Program-made: the position numbers and the translations under genes
Shown: piece by piece, positions 1 to 29,820 of the stretch
How the letters are laid out: every line of letters starts with the position of its first letter
How positions within the stretch are numbered: position 1 is the stretch's first letter
The notes under the pieces: generated by a model
Databases searched by the model: none
Told to the model about the DNA's origin: nothing
The model's input: only the letters and a program-made list of their open reading frames with translations
Source of the DNA: Callorhinchus milii
Lineage: Eukaryota
Assembly: GCF_018977255.1 (NCBI RefSeq)
Contig: NW_024705267.1
Coordinates: 1-57,712 of the forward strand
Direction of reading: 5' to 3'
DNA length: 57,712 nucleotides

Positions 1-202
1 TTTTTAAAATATTCCGAATCCGAAGAAAATGCCTCTCCTTGTTATTTTGGTTTGCCGGCTCTTGATCGTTTCCATCATAAATCAGCGGCAACATCGTCAG
101 CGTCATCATCATTATTGCAACCACCGATAGACTACTGCCATCAACCGCATGCCTCCCATAGCTAAACAAAACACAATGTAACTGGTACTGTATTTTGACT
201 TT

Positions 203-710
203 TTGGCGGTACACCGGTGAAGCATAACAACACGCCGGTCCTCATCAAACAGTCTGACAATGTCGCTGTTGCCCCTTGAGTGAGCCGCAGACTTCTCCAT
301 CAGAAGTTGCACTTCGATTCAGCAGCTACTTTCCAATTCGAACGTGTGACTTGAGGCATCATCTTTTGAAATCACCGTCCACCAAGTAATTATTCTGGAA
401 GTGAATCAAGGAACCGTCCGAACAAGTCTATGGCGTGAGTCAAATCTGCCTTGGGAACACGGAGCAAGCCAATCGTCACCAGGCTGGGTGCTGCTATACG
501 GCAACAGACTGTGAAGCTTCTTCGTGAGCAGCCGCTCGTATAAACGTTCCGTCTTACGACTGCTTCGACATCACGAGAACCGATGTTGACGCACCACCAC
601 CACCCCGCAAGATTTTCTGACCGGGGTTGCTAATCGCGGGAAAATAAATAATTATTACAAGAAATTTGATTTATTTTTATGCCGTGCACCACCGGTGTAC
701 CGCCAATACG
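203..710. mobile_element. About 500-bp MITE with TIR TTGGCGGTACACCGGT
   Basis: Inverted termini; second copy in the opposite orientation at about 22047-22530. Confidence 0.7.
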
Positions 711-1135
711 TTCATTTGTCAAAACATCCCAATGCTGAAAAATGAATTGCAAATGACTCAATTGGGAGTTTTCACAGTAACATCGCGACCCCGACTGCGA
801 AAAACTTGGCATAGTCTAATAGACTCAGCGAGGCTCTCCTGGGTAAACTAGTGGATGGGGTGGTGGCTCAGTGATCCGAACGTGGTGACCGAGTTCGATT
901 TCCGCTCACGGCTAACACCAGTGAAGATTATCTGAACCGGTCCTAGGCCTCCCCTAGGTCGACTCAGCCTGACAATCTACTGGGGAGACAAAGGCGGCCG
1001 GCCGTGGTTCTGGCCACCTACCCCCTCGTGCGCCGCGCCTGCCTTCATCGGCACTACTCGCCAGCGGCGTTAGCCCCAACAGCCTGTTAAGGCTACAAGG
1101 TGGGAGTTGATCTTCGTCTTTGCCTGTGAATCCAG

Positions 1136-1277
1136 TCGGGCAGGGCCAGACCCCGTGGAGCTGCAGAGGCAGCAGGAGTCGCGGCGGCGCGCCCTCGCGC
1201 GCAAGAGAGCCAAGGCCGCGCTGCGCCCCTTCTCCCCGAGCCCGTGGAGGGCCGCAAGCACGTTGACGTACAGACCG
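1136..1277 (+). CDS. RSPH3: RSPH3 exon 3 (contains a compensating +1/-1 indel pair)
   Basis: PDPVELQRQQESRRRALARKRAK..PEPVEGRKHVDVQT; ccag acceptor, gtgag donor, 142 bp. Confidence 0.88.
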
Positions 1278-1694
1278 GTGAGCACGGTGGGGGTGGGGGG
1301 CGCGGTTGTCTCTCTCTCTCTCTCTCTCTCGCAGCCTCTTGCCCCTTCTCCGCTGACACAGCACGAGCAGGGCCAGCGCGGGGGGCACCTCGTGGCACGG
1401 GTGTGTTTTTCCGCTGCCCATATACCTACCGAGCCGAGCCGGAACCAAACTGCGACGCTCCGCTGCGCCTCCCTGTGCTCTGACAATCTGATTGTGGCTC
1501 GGGGGCCAAGCAGGGCCACGGGCAGTGGGGGGGGGGCTCACGATGCGGTCATCACATGCGGCCTCATTCTCCGCACCGTGGACGCAGCGGATAAACAACC
1601 TGGTGCCTGAGCCATGCCGACTATAGCGAGGCATTTGACTCGGTGGAAATTGACGTGTGTACGCACCGTGTATGTGTGTTGCGTTCGCACGCAG

Positions 1695-1840
1695 AGTTGT
1701 ACCTGGAGGAGCTGAGTGGCCGTGTGCAGGAGCGCGACTGGGGCTGTCAGACGGACGCCTTCCTCGACCGCCCCGCTAGCCCTCTCTTCATCCCCGCCAA
1801 GAGCGGGCGCGATGCCACCACGCAGATCCTGCCGGGCGAG
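1695..1840 (+). CDS. RSPH3: RSPH3 exon 4
   Basis: ELYLEELSGRVQERDWGCQTDAFLDRPASPLFIPAKSGRDATTQILPGE; apparent GC donor (GAG|GCACGC). Confidence 0.9.
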
Positions 1841-2129
1841 GCACGCCAACTTACGCCCACTCACACGCCCACTCACACGCACACACAGCCTTTGACAGAC
1901 TGGTGGGGCAAGTGCTGTTAGCGAGCAACCTATGAAGGCTTGCACGGCACACGAGGGGGCGGGTGGTCTGCATCATGCCCGGCCGCCTTTGTCTCTCCTC
2001 CCCAGTGGCGATGTTTACACACCATACCAGGTACTCATTTGAGGCTGAGTCGACCTAGGGAAGGCCCAGGACCGAGCGGTTCAGATAATCGTCACTGGTG
2101 TTGGCCGTGAGAACGACGTATAGGCTGTC

Positions 2130-2360
2130 GCCTGATGAGACTGGTTGTAACTACCGGCTAAACATTGTACTCAAATTGTAAATGTTGTGGGTTTACCCTC
2201 CAAGACACCGGTGTGCTGAACTAGTGCCTAATTAGCACGTTTTATTACGTGTCAAACCTTACTAATTGGCTGTGTCTGGCAGCGAAGGGTTTAACGACAC
2301 ATTTATATTTACGCGATCTAACTAAAATAAAACCCTTTATGGATATTGGTCGCGACAGCC
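2130..2360 (+). repeat. Interspersed repeat family C (pLTR-like, degenerate hammerhead at its 5' end)
   Basis: ACACCGGTGTGCT..TTGGCTGTGTC..ACGACACATTTATATTTACGCGATCTAAC; copies at about 12053-12310, 50050-50260(-), 51155-51380, 51500-51600. Confidence 0.65.
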
Positions 2361-3092
2361 CTACTACTACGTGTTAGACAGCTTCACAACACAACGCACC
2401 AATCACTGCATCACCACTCCACCCAATATGTCTGGCAGCAAGTGTCCTTGTCTGCAGATATCTCGCGGTTCACCACAATTTGCGTTTAAGCAAGCATTGG
2501 CTCCTCTGCTGGTGAAACACAGCAAGGCCGTGTTGCTGACGAGATGTGTAAAAAAATACTTTCGCATATGACACCACACTTACACCTCGATATACGTGCA
2601 TTCGCCACAACAACCAAGCATTCGCCGCTAGGTGGACGTGACGTCGCGACGGGGGTTCGTGCCAGGCTAGGTGCACTTGGAGGCCATCACGCGAAGTGCG
2701 GACGGCTCGCCGCTGCTGTCAGGAGGAGGTCACGGGGCAGGCCTGAGGGGTGGGGGGGCTATGCAAGATACCACCGTGGGCCCTCTCTCTTTCTTCCGAC
2801 TCACTTTTAACTGAAATAGCTGCGGATGTTTTTAACTAGTAGACAATCATTTGTAGGCTACAACTATATATATATTATTCTTGTTATAAAAGTTTATTTA
2901 ATATTTATTTACATTTAATTACTTGTTTCCCTGTTTGATTTGGGGCCCCCTTGCGGCCGACTGGGCCCCTGTGCGTGTCGCTGCTGCCACAAAGCCTCCC
3001 CACTCCGCCATAGTTGCACCCCTGTGTGGAAGGACAGATACGCGAATGAGGTGCACCGCTTAATAATTTAGCATCCTGTGTGTACGGTTATA

Positions 3093-3348
3093 CAGGGTGC
3101 TTCAAAAAAATGTTAACACTTATATGGGACTATCGTTTTGTTGGAAAAATAGAACGGATAATAGACTGTAATGTGATAACAAATGTATGTTAATAGCTTC
3201 AGAAAGGCAAAGCGTCTCCACTCGTTCGCCATCGTTGTCAACGCACACCTGGAATCTTCTCCAGGTGGTCTCCAGAGCCCGGAGGCACATTTCTTGTGGT
3301 ATTGTTTGCAAATTCTCAGAAGTGTTAACATTTGTTTGAAGCACCCTG
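3093..3348. mobile_element. Tc1/mariner-type MITE
   Basis: TIR CAGGGTGCTTCAAA..TGTTAACACTT, TA TSD; a second copy is split by the Penelope insertion (about 20085-20190 plus 21311-21408). Confidence 0.8.
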
Positions 3349-3416
3349 TATTATATTTGTTTATACATGTTTATATATATATGTTTGTACGTATGGCTGA
3401 TTTCCGCGCACCTTAG

Positions 3417-3619
3417 CTGTTTGACTTTGAGGTGGAGGTACGGCCCCTGGTGGAGGTGCTCGGGGCAAGACGGTGGAGCAGTCGCTGCTGGAGGTGATGG
3501 AGGAGGAGGAGCTGGCGTCGCTGCGTGCCCAGCAGCGCGCCTTCCTGGAGCTGCGCAACGCCGAGCGCGCCGAGGCCCAGCGGCTCCACGAGCAGGACCG
3601 GAGGCTGCGCGCCGAGAAG
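3417..3619 (+). CDS. RSPH3: RSPH3 exon 5 (1-bp deletion near 3462)
   Basis: LFDFEVEVRPLVEVL/GKTVEQSLLEVMEEEELASLRAQQRAFLELRNAERAEAQRLHEQDRRLRAEK; tag acceptor, gtgac donor. Confidence 0.9.
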
Positions 3620-3741
3620 GTGACGCGGCCTCGCGCCCCTTGCGCCCGGCCAGAGTGATCAACTGCAGCCTGGCACCCATACGGGAAAACTCTAACCCAC
3701 AGCTCTGTCACCCAAACCCCCCCCCCGGCTGCCCCTTGCAG

Positions 3742-3904
3742 GATCGCCGGCGGCGGCAGCAGCAGGAGGTGGTGGCGCAGGAGAAGGAGGTGGCGGACAA
3801 GGTGGCGGCGCGGGCGTTCGCCAAGCGCTACCTGGGCGACCTCATCCCGGCCGTGTTCAGCACGCTGCGCGACACGGGATACTTCTACGACCCCGTCGAG
3901 AGGG
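3742..3904 (+). CDS. RSPH3: RSPH3 exon 6
   Basis: DRRRRQQQEVVAQEKEVADKVAARAFAKRYLGDLIPAVFSTLRDTGYFYDPVER; AG/GT boundaries. Confidence 0.92.
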
Positions 3905-4446
3905 GTGCGCGGATGACCGCGGCGGAGCGCGACGCCGCGCGTCCGACCGTCGTGGCGGCACCGCCCGATCAATTAGCCGCCCCCCCCTCCCCTCCCCCTG
4001 TGCGCCGTGAGGAGAGGTGGCGCCGCCACTTTAGCAGCGGGTTTGGCAGTCGCAATTCATTCTGTTGCGGTGCCTCCGTCCACACGTCTCCCTCGTGTGC
4101 GTTCCCTTGTGCCTCCCCATACATCCATCCGTCTGTCGTTGTACCGCCCTGTGGCGTGGCGACCCGGGTTCGATTCCCGCTCACGGTCGACACCGGTGAC
4201 GATTATCTGAAACCGGTCCTGGACCTCCCATAGGTCGACTAGGCCTCAAATGAGTACCTGGTGCGGTGTGTAGGCATCGCCACTCGGGAGATAAAGGCGG
4301 CCGGGCGTGGTGCTGGCCACCCACCCCTCGAGTGCCCTCATAGATGCTACTCGCGAACAGGGCTTGCCCTAACGGACTGCTACAGGTTATACGGGGCTCT
4401 TTGTACTGCCCTGTGTGATGACCCACGTTTCCCCGTGTGTCCCTAG

Positions 4447-4533
4447 ATGTGGAGAATGCGTTCATGCCCTGGCTGATGAACGCCGTGGAGGCAGAGCTCC
4501 ATAAGGCACTGGAGGCCCGAGCTCTCCTGGACT
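4447..4533 (+). CDS. RSPH3: RSPH3 exon 7
   Basis: DVENAFMPWLMNAVEAELHKALEARALLD; tag acceptor, gtgag donor; the terminal exon was not found in the window. Confidence 0.88.
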
Positions 4534-5779
4534 GTGAGCAGCCAAACAACCTACAATACATCAATACAAATCTACAAACAAAGTGCACACAACAACACAA
4601 TAATCGCCATTTGCCACTAAGCGGCAGTGACTTGAAGTGTCAAGCGCCGCTGGCAGGAGGTCACAGGACCGACCCAGGTGCCATGGGTTGACTGACTTGA
4701 GATGACTGGCCGATACACCACGTGAACCCACATACACGCAGGCGTACACATGTATATATACATACACATTCGTACTTATACACACGGTATATCCACAAGT
4801 TACGTGCATTAAACATATACACCTGTACACCCTACATACACGTACATTCTCTCAGTTTGCGGCGTTTGTCAGGACCAAGTTGGTACTTATTTAGTCTGTG
4901 GATCTCAGTGCTTAGAGGGTAGGGGATGTTGAAGCCCGTGATGGCAGCACGCCCTCTTGAGCTCAGAGTCTGGAGAGACTTCCACACATTTTCGGAAGCG
5001 CTCACAAGCCTGGGTTGTTCTCGTTCTTCGCAGCGATCATCCGCGACGTGGCAGCTCGTAGAGAGAGGAGCTACGGAGGAGGAGAGCCTTCTGAGAGCTA
5101 AGGACACCTGGGATGTCATCTGAAGTGACGCCAACCCAAAACATCTTCCCCACTCTCGGTGGTTTCAGAGGAATCGTAATGGCCGCGTCAAAGCCACCGA
5201 GTTCCTGGCTTCGAATCCAGAGCTTCCCATTCGTGTGGTATTGCAAAAAGAAGGCGATGTCTTACAGAGTTTGATGCTGTTGTGCTATATTGCCAATGAG
5301 TGAGCACAACAATAAATGTAATTGTCAAACTGGATTTTTGCTTCATTCCTGAATGAATCAAATACATTTCTTTTGGTAAATATACCTGCAATGGATATCA
5401 TTGCGTTGATGTGAATAATTTGAATGTTGGAGGGTTGTTGAAAAGTCTGTGTCTGAACAAAGCAACGATGGGCTGGTTAGCGTGGCAACCAAGAAACAGA
5501 ACGCGTCTGAGAGGGCCCGTACACTGAAGGAGATGCAGCGATGACATCAGTTCGTGCGAAAGTGCTAGACTGATTATTGAAATGCAAGTTTCGTGAGAGG
5601 TGGTGGTGGTGGCATGGAGAGGCCTTCGTCCACAGCTGATGATGACATGGTTAGACTACGTTATATTCGTACACGTTCCGTTGAAGTGAAATACTCCTGG
5701 TCCATCATCATCATCATCGATGTCGCAAGGCTTTAGTCCCCACCCTAAAGAACACCACCAACTCCTGGCCATATCGCAG

Positions 5780-5862
5780 CCCCACGCCTCCAACACCTGG
5801 CAAGCCCTGGTGGTCACCCGTCCAAGCACCAACCAGGCTCAAAAAGCCTGCTTAGCCTGACG
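5780..5862 (-). pseudogene. 5S rRNA-derived fragment (pseudogene or SINE3 head)
   Basis: Minus strand GCTAAGCAGG..GCCTGGTTGGTGCTTGGACGGGTGACC..GGTGTTGGAGGC resembles the 5S 3' half; a similar fragment lies at about 52857-52930(+). Confidence 0.55.
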
Positions 5863-6255
5863 TGCGATGAGGTTGGGCACAGTCCATTCTTCACTCAAGA
5901 TGAACAGCAAGTGCTGGGTGTTTGCTCGGTGTAGAAGATTACATCGAGGCCTTCAGCGTGAATGTGTGTGTGCCTTGACGGGCTCGGAGTAACGCACATG
6001 GCTGCACAGTTCATCTGTTTGAATTTTTTTATTTCACATTACAGAACCTCCAAATTTCCAGAGCCGCCAATGCGGTGTGAATAACGTCACGGAGAAGAGG
6101 TCCTTAAAGAGGCACCGCATGCGGCACGGGAGCCACAGGTTGCAGACCCCCTGGTGATGATGATCAGCACGGCACTGTTGTCGGCACTTCCGCTCTCGGT
6201 GATTGGCAATGATGGCGATGTTGAATGGGAGTGCGGGTATCGTCGATGGCCTCAC

Positions 6256-6343
6256 CGTGGGCTGCAAGTGCTGCGCGTACGTGTTCCCACGCACAACGCG
6301 CCGGTCGTACATGATGTTGCCAAAGCGATCCAAGCCATCGTCC
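6256..6343 (-). CDS. RSPH3: RSPH3 exon 2
   Basis: DDGLDRFGNIMYDRRVVRGNTYAQHLQPT matches the conserved GNIMYDRRVxRGNTYA motif; cag acceptor, gtgag donor, 88 bp, phase matches exon 1. Confidence 0.92.
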
Positions 6344-7004
6344 CTGCAACGTCACCACCACCACCACCATCGTCGTCATCATCATCCTCTCCCCAACATG
6401 GGGCAAAACAAAACAATATCTTACATCGCATTGTTTTCTCAAAAGCCAAAAGTGTCTCCCAGTTCAAAGGAACGACGTATCATGTCCGGCACTGCCAATT
6501 GTTAACGTAGCGTCCGACGTTGACAGCGGCCGACGTTCACCGCCAAGTAGCTGTCACCACGGCGCTTGTGCCAGGCTAGGTGTACATCTAGACCGTCGCC
6601 AGAGGCGTGGATCACGGAAGGCTCCCGCTGCTGCTGGAAGAATGTCACCGGACAGACCCAGGTGTTGTGGGTTGACCCATGTGCCAGGCTAGGTGCACGG
6701 TTGCCTTCGCCCCGGTGCGAAATTTAGTTCGACATACACACACGCAAGAGGTCACGGGAGGGAGCGGTGCGTTATGGGTCACTTGATACAGATGCGCCGC
6801 CTGTGCTGTCCACTCTGCCACCTCGCTGAGAATTTCCTGTCCGGCGATGTTGGGACGGCGACCGCCTCCAACTTGCCCAGCAGCTCTCGAATAATCCACC
6901 AAGACGGTGGCACTTGACCAGCAGCGTTCATTCACGAGCCTCCTCGTCCAGGGAGGCCAAACTTAACATCGCTGGTGCCGGTCACGGGTGACGGAATACA
7001 GAGA

Positions 7005-7757
7005 TGGGGACTCACGGCTGGCATCAGTCAAGGATTTAGTCAAGCAGTGATGAGAGAGACTCACGGCTGGCATCAGTCAAGGAGTGGATATAGGCTCACG
7101 TCTGCCTGTAGTGAAGCAATGAAGTAGTGATGATAGAGACTCACGGCTGCCTGTAGTGAAGTAGTGATGAGACTCACGTCTGCCTGTAGTGAAGTAGTGA
7201 AGCAGTGATGATAGAGACTCACGTCTGCCTGTAGTGAAGCAGTGAAGTAGTGATGATAGAGACTCACGTCTGCCTGTAGTGAAGTAGTGAAGCAGTGATG
7301 ATAGAGACTCACGTCTGCCTGTAGTGAAGCAGTGAAGTAGTGATGATAGAGACTCACGTCTGCCTGTAGTGAAGTAGTGAAGCAGTGATGATAGAGACTC
7401 ACGTCTGCCTGTAGTGAAGCAGTGAAGTAGTGATGATAGAGACTCACGTCTGCCTGTAGTGAAGTAGTGAAGCAGTGATGATAGAGACTCACGTCTGCCT
7501 GTAGTGAAGTAGTGAAGCAGTGATGATAGAGACTCACGTCTGCCTGTAGTGAAGCAGTGAAGTAGTGATGATAGAGACTCACGTCTGCCTGTAGTGAAGT
7601 AGTGAAGCAGTGATGATAGAGACTCACGTCTGCCTGTAGTGAAGCAGTGAAGAGTGAAGTAGTGATGATAGAGACTCACGTCTGCCTGTAGTGAAGTAGT
7701 GAAGCAGTGATGATAGAGACTCACGTCTGCCTGTAGTGAAGTAGTGATGAGACTCAC
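7005..7757. repeat. 45-bp minisatellite built from the RSPH3 exon 1 donor junction
   Basis: GAGACTCACGTCTGCCTGTAGTGAAG(C/T)AGTGAAG(T/C)AGTGATGATA with a 45-bp period, about 17 units. Confidence 0.95.
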
Positions 7758-7855
7758 GTCTGTCTGTAGGGGGCCCGTAGCGGCACGGGTCGCGGGCGGC
7801 TCGTGAAGGTGTAGTAGGCCTCGCTCTGGGGCTGCTGCGCTAGGAACGCCGCCAT
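7758..7855 (-). CDS. RSPH3: Radial spoke head protein 3, first coding exon
   Basis: MAAFLAQQPQSEAYYTFTSRPRPVPLRAPYRQ resembles the RSPH3 N-terminus (YTYTSRPR..RYR); ends phase 2 at a GTGAGT donor. Confidence 0.85.
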
Positions 7856-8236
7856 CTCCCTGCTGGGCGAGCGACTCGGAGCTCCACCAGAGACGCCTCC
7901 CTCGGGGGGCGAACCGCGACGTGGACGTGAAGCGGAGCGACAGAGGAGATGAGAGAGGTGAGGGAGATGAGAGAGGTGAGGGAGATGAGAGAGGTGAAGG
8001 AGAGGAGAGAGGATGAAGTGAGATGAGAGGTGAGATGAGAGATGAGTGAGAGACGGAGATGAGAGGGAGATGAGATGAGGGAGATATGAGAGCGATGACA
8101 AGAGAGATGAGAGAGGGGATGAGAGAGATGAGAGAGATGAGAGGGAGATGAGAGGTGAGTGAGAGATGTAGGAGAGAGCTTCTGGGGGTTGGATTCTTCA
8201 AAAAAGTTAAATTCTCAGTTGGGCCGCGGCCTTCCC

Positions 8237-8250
8237 GTCTCCATGGAGAC
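8237..8250. promoter_or_regulatory. RFX X-box upstream of RSPH3 exon 1
   Basis: Perfect palindrome GTCTCCATGGAGAC fits the X-box consensus GTYNCC-AT-GGNRAC, in a CpG-rich patch about 380 bp upstream of the ATG of a motile-cilia gene. Confidence 0.7.
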
Positions 8251-8503
8251 CGACTGACGCACCGCTCCGCCGCAGGTAAATATAGCGCGCGCGCAAACCG
8301 CGGGTTTATATTAAAGTTTACTAACTTACACTACTAAATGCTGCCGCATGCATCTCTTCGTTCGTTTTGTTGTTGATTTTAAATGAATTATTTTTTAGTT
8401 TTCTCTCGGTTGTCCGCAACGGAGCCGCCTTCCCGCATATCGCTGCGCGCCGTCCCCGCAGTCTCAATCGGCCGGCGCTACTTCTGTGTACACAAGCCCC
8501 GTT

Positions 8504-8518
8504 GTTGCCAGGGGCGAC
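8504..8518. promoter_or_regulatory. Second RFX X-box candidate
   Basis: GTTGCC-AGG-GGCGAC. Confidence 0.55.
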
Positions 8519-9480: not shown

Positions 9481-9797
9481 ACTGGCAAAACAAGGACCCA
9501 TCGATATTGCGTCGTTGTTGTTGTTAAGTAAATCTTGATTTGTTGTTAAGTAACGTTTGTTATTTGACAGTGAAGTTGATCGTTTTATTGTTCAGTTAAT
9601 TCGGCCCACGAAGACTCGTGTCCCCTTCCGTCGTATCCCGTCTGTGGATATCAAAACAAACCTTGGGCGCTGCGTCTTATCATTCGGTAACTCGTTATTT
9701 TTTGCACGTGCTATGAAGAAAAGGGCCATTGACCGAAACGTTGCCTGTTATATATTTCCTTTTAAGGCTGATGTGTTGGTGTTTAAAAATATATATA

Positions 9798-10327
9798 CAG
9801 GGACTTCCCTACTTACGGACGAGTTAGGTTCCAGAGGTCTGTTCGTAAGAGTTGTATAATCTCCTGTAGATGCCACTGGTTCTTCATGTTCTGCAGATGT
9901 AGATGCCACTGGTTCTTCACGTTCTGTCGATGTAGATGCCACTGGGTCTTCATGTTCTGCAGACTTAGATGCCACTGGTTCTTCATGTTCTGCAGATGTA
10001 GATGCCACTGGTTCTTCATGTTCTGCAGATGTAGATGCCACTGGTTCTTCATGTTCTGCAGATGTAGATGCCACTGGTTCTTCACGTTCTGCAGATGTAG
10101 ATGCCACTGGTTCTTCATGTTCTGCAGATGTAGATGCCACTGGTTCTTCACGTTCTGCAGATGTAGATGCCACTGGTTCTTCATGTTCTGCAGATGTAGA
10201 TGCCACCACCGCCATCTATTGCGCGGCGGTTGAACTTACGACTCTCGATCTGAACATGCAACTGGACATACGTACAGGTTTGTTCGTATCTCTGAAAGTT
10301 CGTAAGTCGTAAGTAGAGGAGTGCCTG
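9798..10327. mobile_element. Tigger/pogo-like non-autonomous element with an internal 33-bp tandem array
   Basis: Imperfect TIR CAGG(G/C)ACT..CTACTTACG, TA flanks; about 10 copies of TGCAGATGTAGATGCCACTGGTTCTTCATGTTC at 9866-10206. Confidence 0.7.
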
Positions 10328-18877: not shown

Positions 18878-19217
18878 ATGGCGATGACTGAGGCAATGAT
18901 GATGGTGTTCACTGATAGGAATACTGTAGTGGTTTGTTTCTGCTGCTGCTGCAAGCGGATGCTGGTCATTATTGCACTGATCCTGCTTTTGCTGATGATT
19001 CTGATGGTGGTGCTGATGATGACACTGACGATGATGATGCTGACGACCAAGCTGATGATGACACTGATGGTGCTAGTGCTGATGATACTGCTGATGATAC
19101 TGACGATTATATTGATTGTGATGGGGATCAAACTGATGATGACACTGATCGTGCTGCTGTTGCTGCCGATGACACTGCCGATGATGGCGAAGCTGCTGAT
19201 GCTGCTGGCTGCGTCAC

Positions 19218-19350
19218 CATGGGAGGGTTGCCGCTGAACTGCGGTGTGGGACACGCGGTCTCGCGCCCGCCCCACTGCTCGTGCCGGGCGTAGCACCACG
19301 TGACGTTGTGTTCCCGCAGGCTGGCCTCCGTCTGGCCACGCACCACTCGC
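19218..19350 (-). CDS. NOX exon 7
   Basis: RVVRGQTEASLREHNVTWCYARHEQWGGRETACPTPQFSGNPPM (cf. RIVRGQT..CPIPQFAGNPPM). Confidence 0.92.
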
Positions 19351-19762
19351 CTGCAACAGCAGCACCAGCAGGAACAACAGCAGCAGCAGCACCAGCAGTT
19401 AGCAGCAACACCAGCAGGAGCACTAGCAGGAGCAGCAGCCGCACCAGTAGCAGCAGCAGGAGCAGCAGCACCAGCAAGAGCAGCACCAGCAGTTAGCAGC
19501 ACCAGCAGTTAGCAGCAGCACCAGCAGGAGCAGCAGCACCAGCAGCAGGAGCAGCAGCAGGAGCAGCAGCAGGAGCAGCACCAGCATGAGCAGCAGCACC
19601 AGCAGCACAGCAGCAGGAGCAGCAGCAGGAGCAGCACCAGCATGAGCAGCAGCACCAGCAGCAGCAGCATGAGCAGCAGCACCAGCAGCAGCAGCATGAG
19701 CAGCAGCACCAGCAGCACCAGCAGCAGCACCAGCAGCACCAGCAGCAGCACCAGCAGAGCAC

Positions 19763-29790: not shown

Positions 29791-29820
29791 NNNNNNNNNN
29801 NNNNNNNNNNNNNNNNNNNN
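29791..29820. other. Assembly gap (30 N)
   Basis: Run of N. Confidence 1.

What the first reader, a model, noticed from the sequence alone, without database searches (positions are those of the whole stretch)
1136..8518. RSPH3 is split across both strands: promoter and exons 1-2 on minus, exons 3-7 on plus
Seen: exons 1 (7855-7758) and 2 (6343-6256), with X-boxes upstream, run leftwards. Exons 3-7 (1136-4533) run rightwards towards them. No exon occurs twice, splice phases join correctly (exon 2 ends phase 0, exon 3 starts phase 0), no N-gap separates them, and the last exon is missing. Flipping a segment with its right breakpoint between 4534 and 6255 restores a normal gene. Inference: misassembly is the most likely cause. 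Alternatives are a polymorphic inversion, two partial paralogs, trans-splicing, or a germline/soma rearrangement (lampreys are known to undergo programmed genome rearrangement).
Basis: partly seen in the sequence, partly recalled or inferred. Interest (0 to 1): 0.7.

Follow-up and report, generated by a model that had tools for sequence, protein, structure and literature searches.

The report
Flipped contig end splits lamprey RSPH3
The gene's exons do point both ways in this record, but independent lamprey DNA shows an ordinary one-strand gene and RNA shows ordinary splicing, so the split is most likely an assembly error that flipped the first 6 kb of a lamprey contig, itself likely a stray in a cartilaginous-fish genome.

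Summary
The split is in the sequence but is almost surely an assembly artefact. The break is exactly 6044|6045, and the other break is base 1 of the contig. In two public DNA runs (X1, X2), base 6045 is joined to the reverse complement of window base 1, and base 6044 runs on into sequence absent from this assembly. None of 9 laid pieces bridges 6044|6045. RNA contigs show normal exon 1-2-3 splicing. A dispersed repeat cut by the junction is whole again after flipping 1-6044: 5 of 8 copies cross the flipped join, 0 of 8 the assembled one. The last exon is not missing: it lies at 5034-5101 (+). The gene is lamprey RSPH3 (325/326 identical to Lampetra fluviatilis). The assembly's chromosome C3 carries a separate, intact RSPH3 that groups with sharks and rays, so this contig is likely cross-species contamination. 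The scan noted lamprey contigs in this genome before (e1-9950488). The evidence gives no support for trans-splicing, paralogs or germline/soma rearrangement. Low interest.

The parts
1..6044 (+). Segment that is reverse-complemented in this contig relative to the real lamprey locus; its left end is the contig's first base
6044..6045 (.). False junction; the true join of 6045 to base 1 lies in an A-run (8 A in X1, 7 in the window), with no inverted repeat or gap
   Evidence: loose ends; (no inverted pair links these two places)
7758..7855 (-). RSPH3 coding exon 1 (ATG at 7855)
   Evidence: 32/32 identical to P0001; spliced to exon 2 in RNA contig X18
6256..6343 (-). RSPH3 exon 2
   Evidence: 29/29 identical to P0001; spliced to exon 3 in X18 and X15
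6045..6255 (-). First 211 nt of intron 2
1..1135 (+). Remainder of intron 2 (about 1346 nt in all after the flip)
1136..1277 (+). RSPH3 exon 3; carries one extra and one missing base, likely consensus errors
1695..1840 (+). RSPH3 exon 4, followed by a GC splice donor
   Evidence: X1 piece 1527-1921 has 0 substitutions
3417..3619 (+). RSPH3 exon 5; one base short (203 nt vs 204 on C3), likely a consensus error
3742..3904 (+). RSPH3 exon 6
   Evidence: 100% identical to P0001
4447..4533 (+). RSPH3 exon 7
5034..5101 (+).
8237..8250 (.). Palindromic X-box-like (RFX) motif upstream of exon 1
   Evidence: regex from a recalled consensus; function untested
8504..8518 (.). Second X-box-like motif
   Evidence: regex from a recalled consensus; function untested
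6045..6150 (+). Right part of a ~158-bp dispersed repeat whose left part is the reverse complement of window 1-52
6013..6044 (-). Last 32 nt of a polyadenylated transcript of the convergent neighbour gene, cut off by the false junction (AATAAA on - at 6028-6033)
   Evidence: X15 record 3 with T-run before 6013

Best explanation
Lamprey RSPH3 is an ordinary eight-exon, single-strand gene that is spliced in order, and the two-strand layout here is most likely an assembly error in which bases 1-6044 of the contig were attached in reverse complement. Shown: the true order is exon 1, exon 2, 6255 down to 6045, then base 1 up to 6044 (exons 3-8), then downstream DNA that this assembly lacks. Inferred: the most likely process is a software step that pasted a thinly covered, indel-rich long-read extension onto the contig end on the wrong strand, or that cut the contig there and rejoined it flipped. 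The contig is lamprey DNA and likely a contaminant in a cartilaginous-fish assembly.
For: (1) In X1 and X2 the letters before 6045 are the reverse complement of window 1-29 plus one A (X2 differs by one T). (2) One 401-nt X2 contig appears to bridge the join: the same length and depth (29.8) map record 1-254 to window 1-266 (-) and record 255-401 to 6045-6191 (+). (3) After 6044, X1, X2 and RNA run X15 all continue with the same 30 letters, which are not the window's and are not in G000. X10 (organism D) also leaves the window at 6044, and X5 (organism B) runs 106 nt past base 1. (4) 0 of 9 pieces laid on 5930-6350 bridge 6044|6045, and no joint is listed. (5) RNA contig X18 has exon 1-2-3 joins and X15 the exon 2-3 join. 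(6) A dispersed repeat aligns across the flipped join in 5 of 8 copies and across the assembled join in 0 of 8. (7) Full-length single models exist from four lamprey genome annotations on 7.4-10.4 Mb contigs. (8) The second break is the contig's first base, blunt to within 1 nt and without inverted repeats. (9) X1 matches the window almost letter for letter (1 substitution in the 8 listed pieces), yet shows 18 gap letters in 3150 nt left of the break and 0 in 728 nt right of it (P about 0.02 if gaps are independent). All three coding frameshifts are left of the break. (10) The window protein is 98.5-99.7% identical to three lampreys and 59% to the C3 copy, which groups with sharks and rays at 96/95 support. 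The window's SINE has 0 hits in 150 kb of C3, and C3's SINE has 61 hits there and 0 in the window.
Against: The raw reads behind this contig were not seen, so a real inversion private to the source animal is not formally excluded. Logan contigs drop rare variants, and tables 5 and 8 were cut (15 of about 2,180 joints and 32 of about 304,800 pieces shown). The X1 contig bridging 6045 to base 1 has depth 13.6 against 23.9 for the contig leaving 6044. That could mean only one haplotype is in it, though a heterozygous inversion should have broken both contigs at the join, and it did not. The exact software step is a guess: the gap asymmetry is weak if gaps cluster into few events, and the DENTIST passages seen gave no precedent for a wrong-strand extension.
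Confidence: 0.96

Rival explanations
1. A real, recent inversion of the 6044-bp segment in the one lamprey that gave the contaminating DNA, which would knock out one RSPH3 allele and clip the neighbour's 3' end.
For: No N gap at the junction. Assemblers can stop contigs at heterozygous inversion breakpoints, which could explain a contig starting at the other break (general knowledge). The X1 bridging contig is at about half depth.
Against: X1, nearly identical to the window, shows both normal joins as unbroken contigs with 255+ letters beyond each. The ends are blunt and lack inverted repeats. The flipped part carries frameshift-type indels typical of raw consensus.
Confidence: 0.025
2. Programmed germline-to-soma rearrangement: the germline holds the inverted, silent form and the soma restores the gene (or the reverse).
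For: Lampreys do restructure their somatic genome (PMC10166183, passages). Earlier scan notes suggest that some lamprey contigs of this assembly are germline-type (e1-9950488, untested here). The tissues of X1, X2, X5 and X10 are not known.
Against: The described process is loss of whole chromosomes or fragments; the word 'inversion' does not occur in that paper's main text. The sea lamprey assembly there was made from meiotic testis and annotated by NCBI, and an NCBI full-length P. marinus RSPH3 model exists on a 9.7-Mb contig; that this model comes from that assembly is my inference from the accession. Four DNA runs from three organism labels agree with the collinear order or leave the window at the break.
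Confidence: 0.007
3. Trans-splicing joins exons 1-2 and 3-8 transcribed from opposite strands.
For: The exon 2-3 join is present in RNA, which would need trans-splicing if the window's layout were real.
Against: DNA contigs of the same organism label as the RNA (A: X1, X2 and X18) are collinear, so plain cis-splicing over a ~1.35-kb intron explains the join.
Confidence: 0.004
4. Two partial paralogs facing each other.
For: A second RSPH3 exists in G000.
Against: The two halves are non-overlapping parts of one 331-aa lamprey protein and are physically joined in DNA contigs. The C3 copy is a complete gene of cartilaginous-fish type, 59% identical.
Confidence: 0.004

Closest known systems
Lamprey RSPH3 (radial spoke head protein 3; P0001 Lampetra fluviatilis, P0008 Lethenteron reissneri, P0009 Petromyzon marinus; Pfam PF06098)
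   Same: 325/326, 324/326 and 319/324 identical residues; eight coding exons with the same lengths for exons 3, 4, 6 and 7 as the C3 gene.
   Different: Only the orientation of bases 1-6044 and three 1-nt indels, all likely assembly errors.
Orientation misjoin at a contig end, in a cross-species contaminant contig (known class of assembly artefact; general knowledge)
   Same: Blunt junction, second break at the contig's first base, no support in independent sequence, cuts through a repeat and a neighbour's 3' UTR, indel-rich flipped part.
   Different: No N gap marks the join; the responsible software step was not identified.
Trans-spliced genes with exons on both strands, such as Drosophila mod(mdg4) (recalled, no call)
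   Same: Superficially, exons of one mRNA on opposite strands.
   Different: Here the real DNA is collinear, so the defining feature is absent.
Lamprey programmed DNA elimination (PMC10166183; passages seen)
   Same: Same animal group.
   Different: That process removes whole chromosomes or fragments; nothing here is shown to be germline-limited, and RSPH3 is modelled intact in four lamprey annotations.

Membership tests
RSPH3 / Radial_spoke_3 (PF06098) | Match to the Pfam profile above the curated cut-off | tested here: met
   Exons 4, 5 and 6 score 62.6, 59.4 and 56.8 bits against a cut-off of 26.4; exon 7 scores 20.9; 4 of 8 exon translations had no hit.
RSPH3 / Radial_spoke_3 (PF06098) | Full-length orthology to named RSPH3 proteins | tested here: met
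   All 8 exons tile P0001 residues 1-331; 100/100 clade with three lampreys.
Assembly misjoin | Independent sequence does not cross the junction and supports another join on both sides | tested here: met
   0 of 9 pieces bridge; X1 and X2 show the alternative join on both sides.
Assembly misjoin | The assembly's own raw reads fail to support the junction | not testable with these tools
   Source reads not available; X1 may or may not be the same animal.
Cross-species contaminant contig | Genes and repeats match another taxon while the host's own orthologue lies elsewhere in the assembly | tested here: met
   Window 98.5-99.7% to lampreys; C3 gene 71-74% to sharks and rays vs 60% to lampreys; SINE cross-test 0/0; GC 0.50 and CpG o/e 0.88 vs 0.42 and 0.36.
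Polymorphic inversion | Both inverted junctions present in reads of some individuals | tested here: not met
   Not seen in X1 or X2, nor in the listed pieces of X5 and X10 (tables cut); contigs drop rare variants.
Trans-spliced gene | Genomic exons truly non-collinear while the mRNA is joined | tested here: not met
   mRNA joined, but DNA collinear.
Lamprey programmed genome rearrangement | Difference between sperm and somatic DNA at the locus | not testable with these tools
   Tissue of the runs is not on record; indirect evidence is against.

The most novel reading that the evidence does not exclude
The junction is a real 6-kb inversion carried by the one lamprey, or only by its germline, that splits RSPH3 in intron 2 and clips its neighbour's 3' end; in the boldest form, a developmentally programmed inversion unlike the known chromosome loss.
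Probability: 0.03. Interest if true: 0.45.

Novelty: not a real feature. Interest (0 to 1): 0.05.

Why it matters
Biologically it does not: lamprey RSPH3 is a normal gene. The practical value is curation. This contig is lamprey DNA in an assembly whose chromosomes are of a cartilaginous fish, its first 6044 bases are flipped, and its exons carry indel errors. Odd gene layouts, extra paralogs or frameshifts on the small contigs of G000 should therefore be checked for species of origin and misjoins before being read as biology.

Tried and rejected
Duplicate haplotig: the C3 RSPH3 shares only one DNA match with the window (71% over 164 nt in exon 5), so it is not a second haplotype. Inverted repeats at the two breaks (a recombination mechanism): none among the 25 longest of 41 pairs or in the self-BLAST. 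Sequence downstream of 6044 elsewhere in G000: 0 matches at up to 2 mismatches. Other genes in 8.3-57.7 kb, to compare error rates right of the break: 112 stop-to-stop frames of 95 aa or more gave 3 weak Pfam hits, all below the curated cut-offs; short exons would be missed. The first lay was swamped by repeats, so its joint and loose-end tables were uninformative; only its piece table was used. No listed holder was on record as RNA (X15 and X18 are guessed RNA, but they show spliced joins). Paper searches: 'RSPH3' with 'lamprey' gave 0 papers. Searches for a report of lamprey contamination in a chimaera assembly gave listings with no such title or abstract start (listings only). A search for false inversions at contig ends gave tool papers (listing); passages of PMC8848313 gave no precedent for wrong-strand extension. 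Scan look-ups near this place and for similar flips gave nothing.
Full report
Observation. The window is the whole of contig C526 of a 991.5-Mb assembly with 1762 contigs. The only N run is at 29791-29820. Four of eight exon translations hit Pfam Radial_spoke_3. One statement is wrong: the last exon is present at 5034-5101 (+), matches residues 306-331 of the lamprey protein and is followed by AATAAA near 5311. The plus-strand exons also carry three 1-nt indels (two in exon 3, one in exon 5).

Whose gene it is. Exon 6 is 100% identical to Lampetra fluviatilis RSPH3. The whole window protein, read with X at the breaks, is 325/326, 324/326 and 319/324 identical to L. fluviatilis, Lethenteron reissneri and Petromyzon marinus. 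G000 holds a second RSPH3 on the 99-Mb contig C3. It is collinear, opens to 338 aa, is 59% identical to the window protein and 71-74% to four sharks and rays, and groups with them at 96/95 support (10 rows; P0002, P0010 and P0011 left out as near-duplicates of lamprey rows; its branch is flagged as long). Window and C3 share no SINE: the window's has 10 hits in the window and 0 in 150 kb of C3, and C3's has 61 and 0. They also differ in GC and CpG. The window's repeats hit only contigs numbered 114 or higher among the candidates scored. So C526 is lamprey DNA and likely a contaminant in a cartilaginous-fish assembly. An earlier scan note says the same of another contig and names the host as elephant shark (e1-9950488); I tested only 'cartilaginous fish'.

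Where the break is. Laying four DNA runs on 1-6950 showed contigs that stop matching at 6045 (X1) and at 6044 (X2, X10) while running on for 260-300 letters, and contigs running past base 1 (X2, X5). A narrow lay on 5930-6350 (X1, X2, X18, X15; 9 pieces in all) gave the letters. Before 6045, X1 and X2 read the reverse complement of window bases 1-29 (compare) plus one A. Behind 6044, X1, X2 and X15 read one and the same other sequence, which G000 lacks. A 401-nt X2 contig of depth 29.8 appears in both calls with complementary record ranges (1-254 on window 1-266, minus; 255-401 on 6045-6191, plus), so it is read as one contig bridging the true join. None of the 9 pieces crosses 6044|6045. The real order is therefore exon 1, exon 2, 6255 to 6045, base 1 to 6044; flipping 1-6044 in silico puts all eight exons on one strand in order, with a 1346-nt intron 2.

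Independent checks. RNA contig X18 (same organism label as X1 and X2) carries exon 2 flanked by the end of exon 1 and the start of exon 3, and X15 carries the exon 2-3 join; both are guessed RNA, but the joins are spliced. X15 also holds a polyadenylated opposite-strand transcript that ends at 6013 and crosses 6044 into the same downstream sequence. Within G000, a dispersed repeat begins at the junction: 5 of 8 fetched copies align continuously across the flipped join and 0 of 8 across the assembled one, so the flipped order is the ancestral one. Four lamprey genome annotations give single full-length models on 7.4-10.4 Mb contigs; such models require collinear exons (general knowledge of gene predictors).

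How it most likely arose. Shown: the segment is exactly terminal, the join is blunt within an A-run to within one base, and there is no inverted repeat or gap. X1 is nearly letter-identical to the window, yet has 18 gap letters in 3150 nt left of the break and none in 728 nt right of it (P about 0.02, weaker if gaps cluster; the pieces are those listed, chosen by length). Inferred: a low-depth long-read extension pasted on the wrong strand, or an in-silico cut and flipped rejoin. I could not tell these apart and found no printed precedent.

Results against this reading. The source reads were not seen. Contigs drop rare variants. One search's tables were cut. The X1 bridging contig is at about half the depth of the contig on the other side (13.6 vs 23.9), and X2 has a further contig leaving at 6162. 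These leave a small chance of a private inversion. A germline-specific form cannot be tested directly because the runs' tissues are unrecorded. However, lamprey programmed rearrangement is described as loss of whole chromosomes or fragments, and the sea lamprey assembly from meiotic testis was annotated by NCBI (PMC10166183, passages seen); an intact NCBI P. marinus model exists, and its link to that assembly is my inference.

Verdict. The feature is an artefact in a contaminant contig: interest 0.05.

Noticed in passing
whole window; G000 contigs C114-C1689 hit: Lamprey-type repeats hit dozens of small contigs of this cartilaginous-fish assembly and none numbered below 114 among the candidates scored; 7 loci checked carry the window's SINE and not the C3 SINE (they were chosen by that SINE). 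Contamination is not limited to this contig.
   Followed up: partly
window 1841-1842: Intron 4 of lamprey RSPH3 starts with GC, not GT; the X1 piece over it has no substitution, while the C3 gene has GT.
   Followed up: partly
window 6013-6044 (-): 3' end of a convergent neighbour transcript with poly(A) in X15 and AATAAA at 6028-6033; the gene itself is not in this contig and was not identified.
   Followed up: partly
window 6162-6191: X2 has a second contig (422 nt, depth 24.7) that leaves the window at 6162: an allele with an insertion or another repeat copy.
   Followed up: no
window ~7000-7757 and ~7945-8180: Tandem array in intron 1 whose units resemble the exon 1 donor end, and a purine-rich simple repeat between the X-box-like motif and the start codon (seen).
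   Followed up: no
window 29791-29820: 30-N run in the middle of the contig; orientation of the two sides was not checked.
   Followed up: no
window 19200-19493 (+), 9751-10235 (-): Three weak Pfam hits below cut-off in low-complexity frames; treated as chance.
   Followed up: no
G000:C3:57,197,599-57,209,3xx (L018/L019): Intact eight-exon host RSPH3, 338 aa, on a long branch among cartilaginous fishes.
   Followed up: yes
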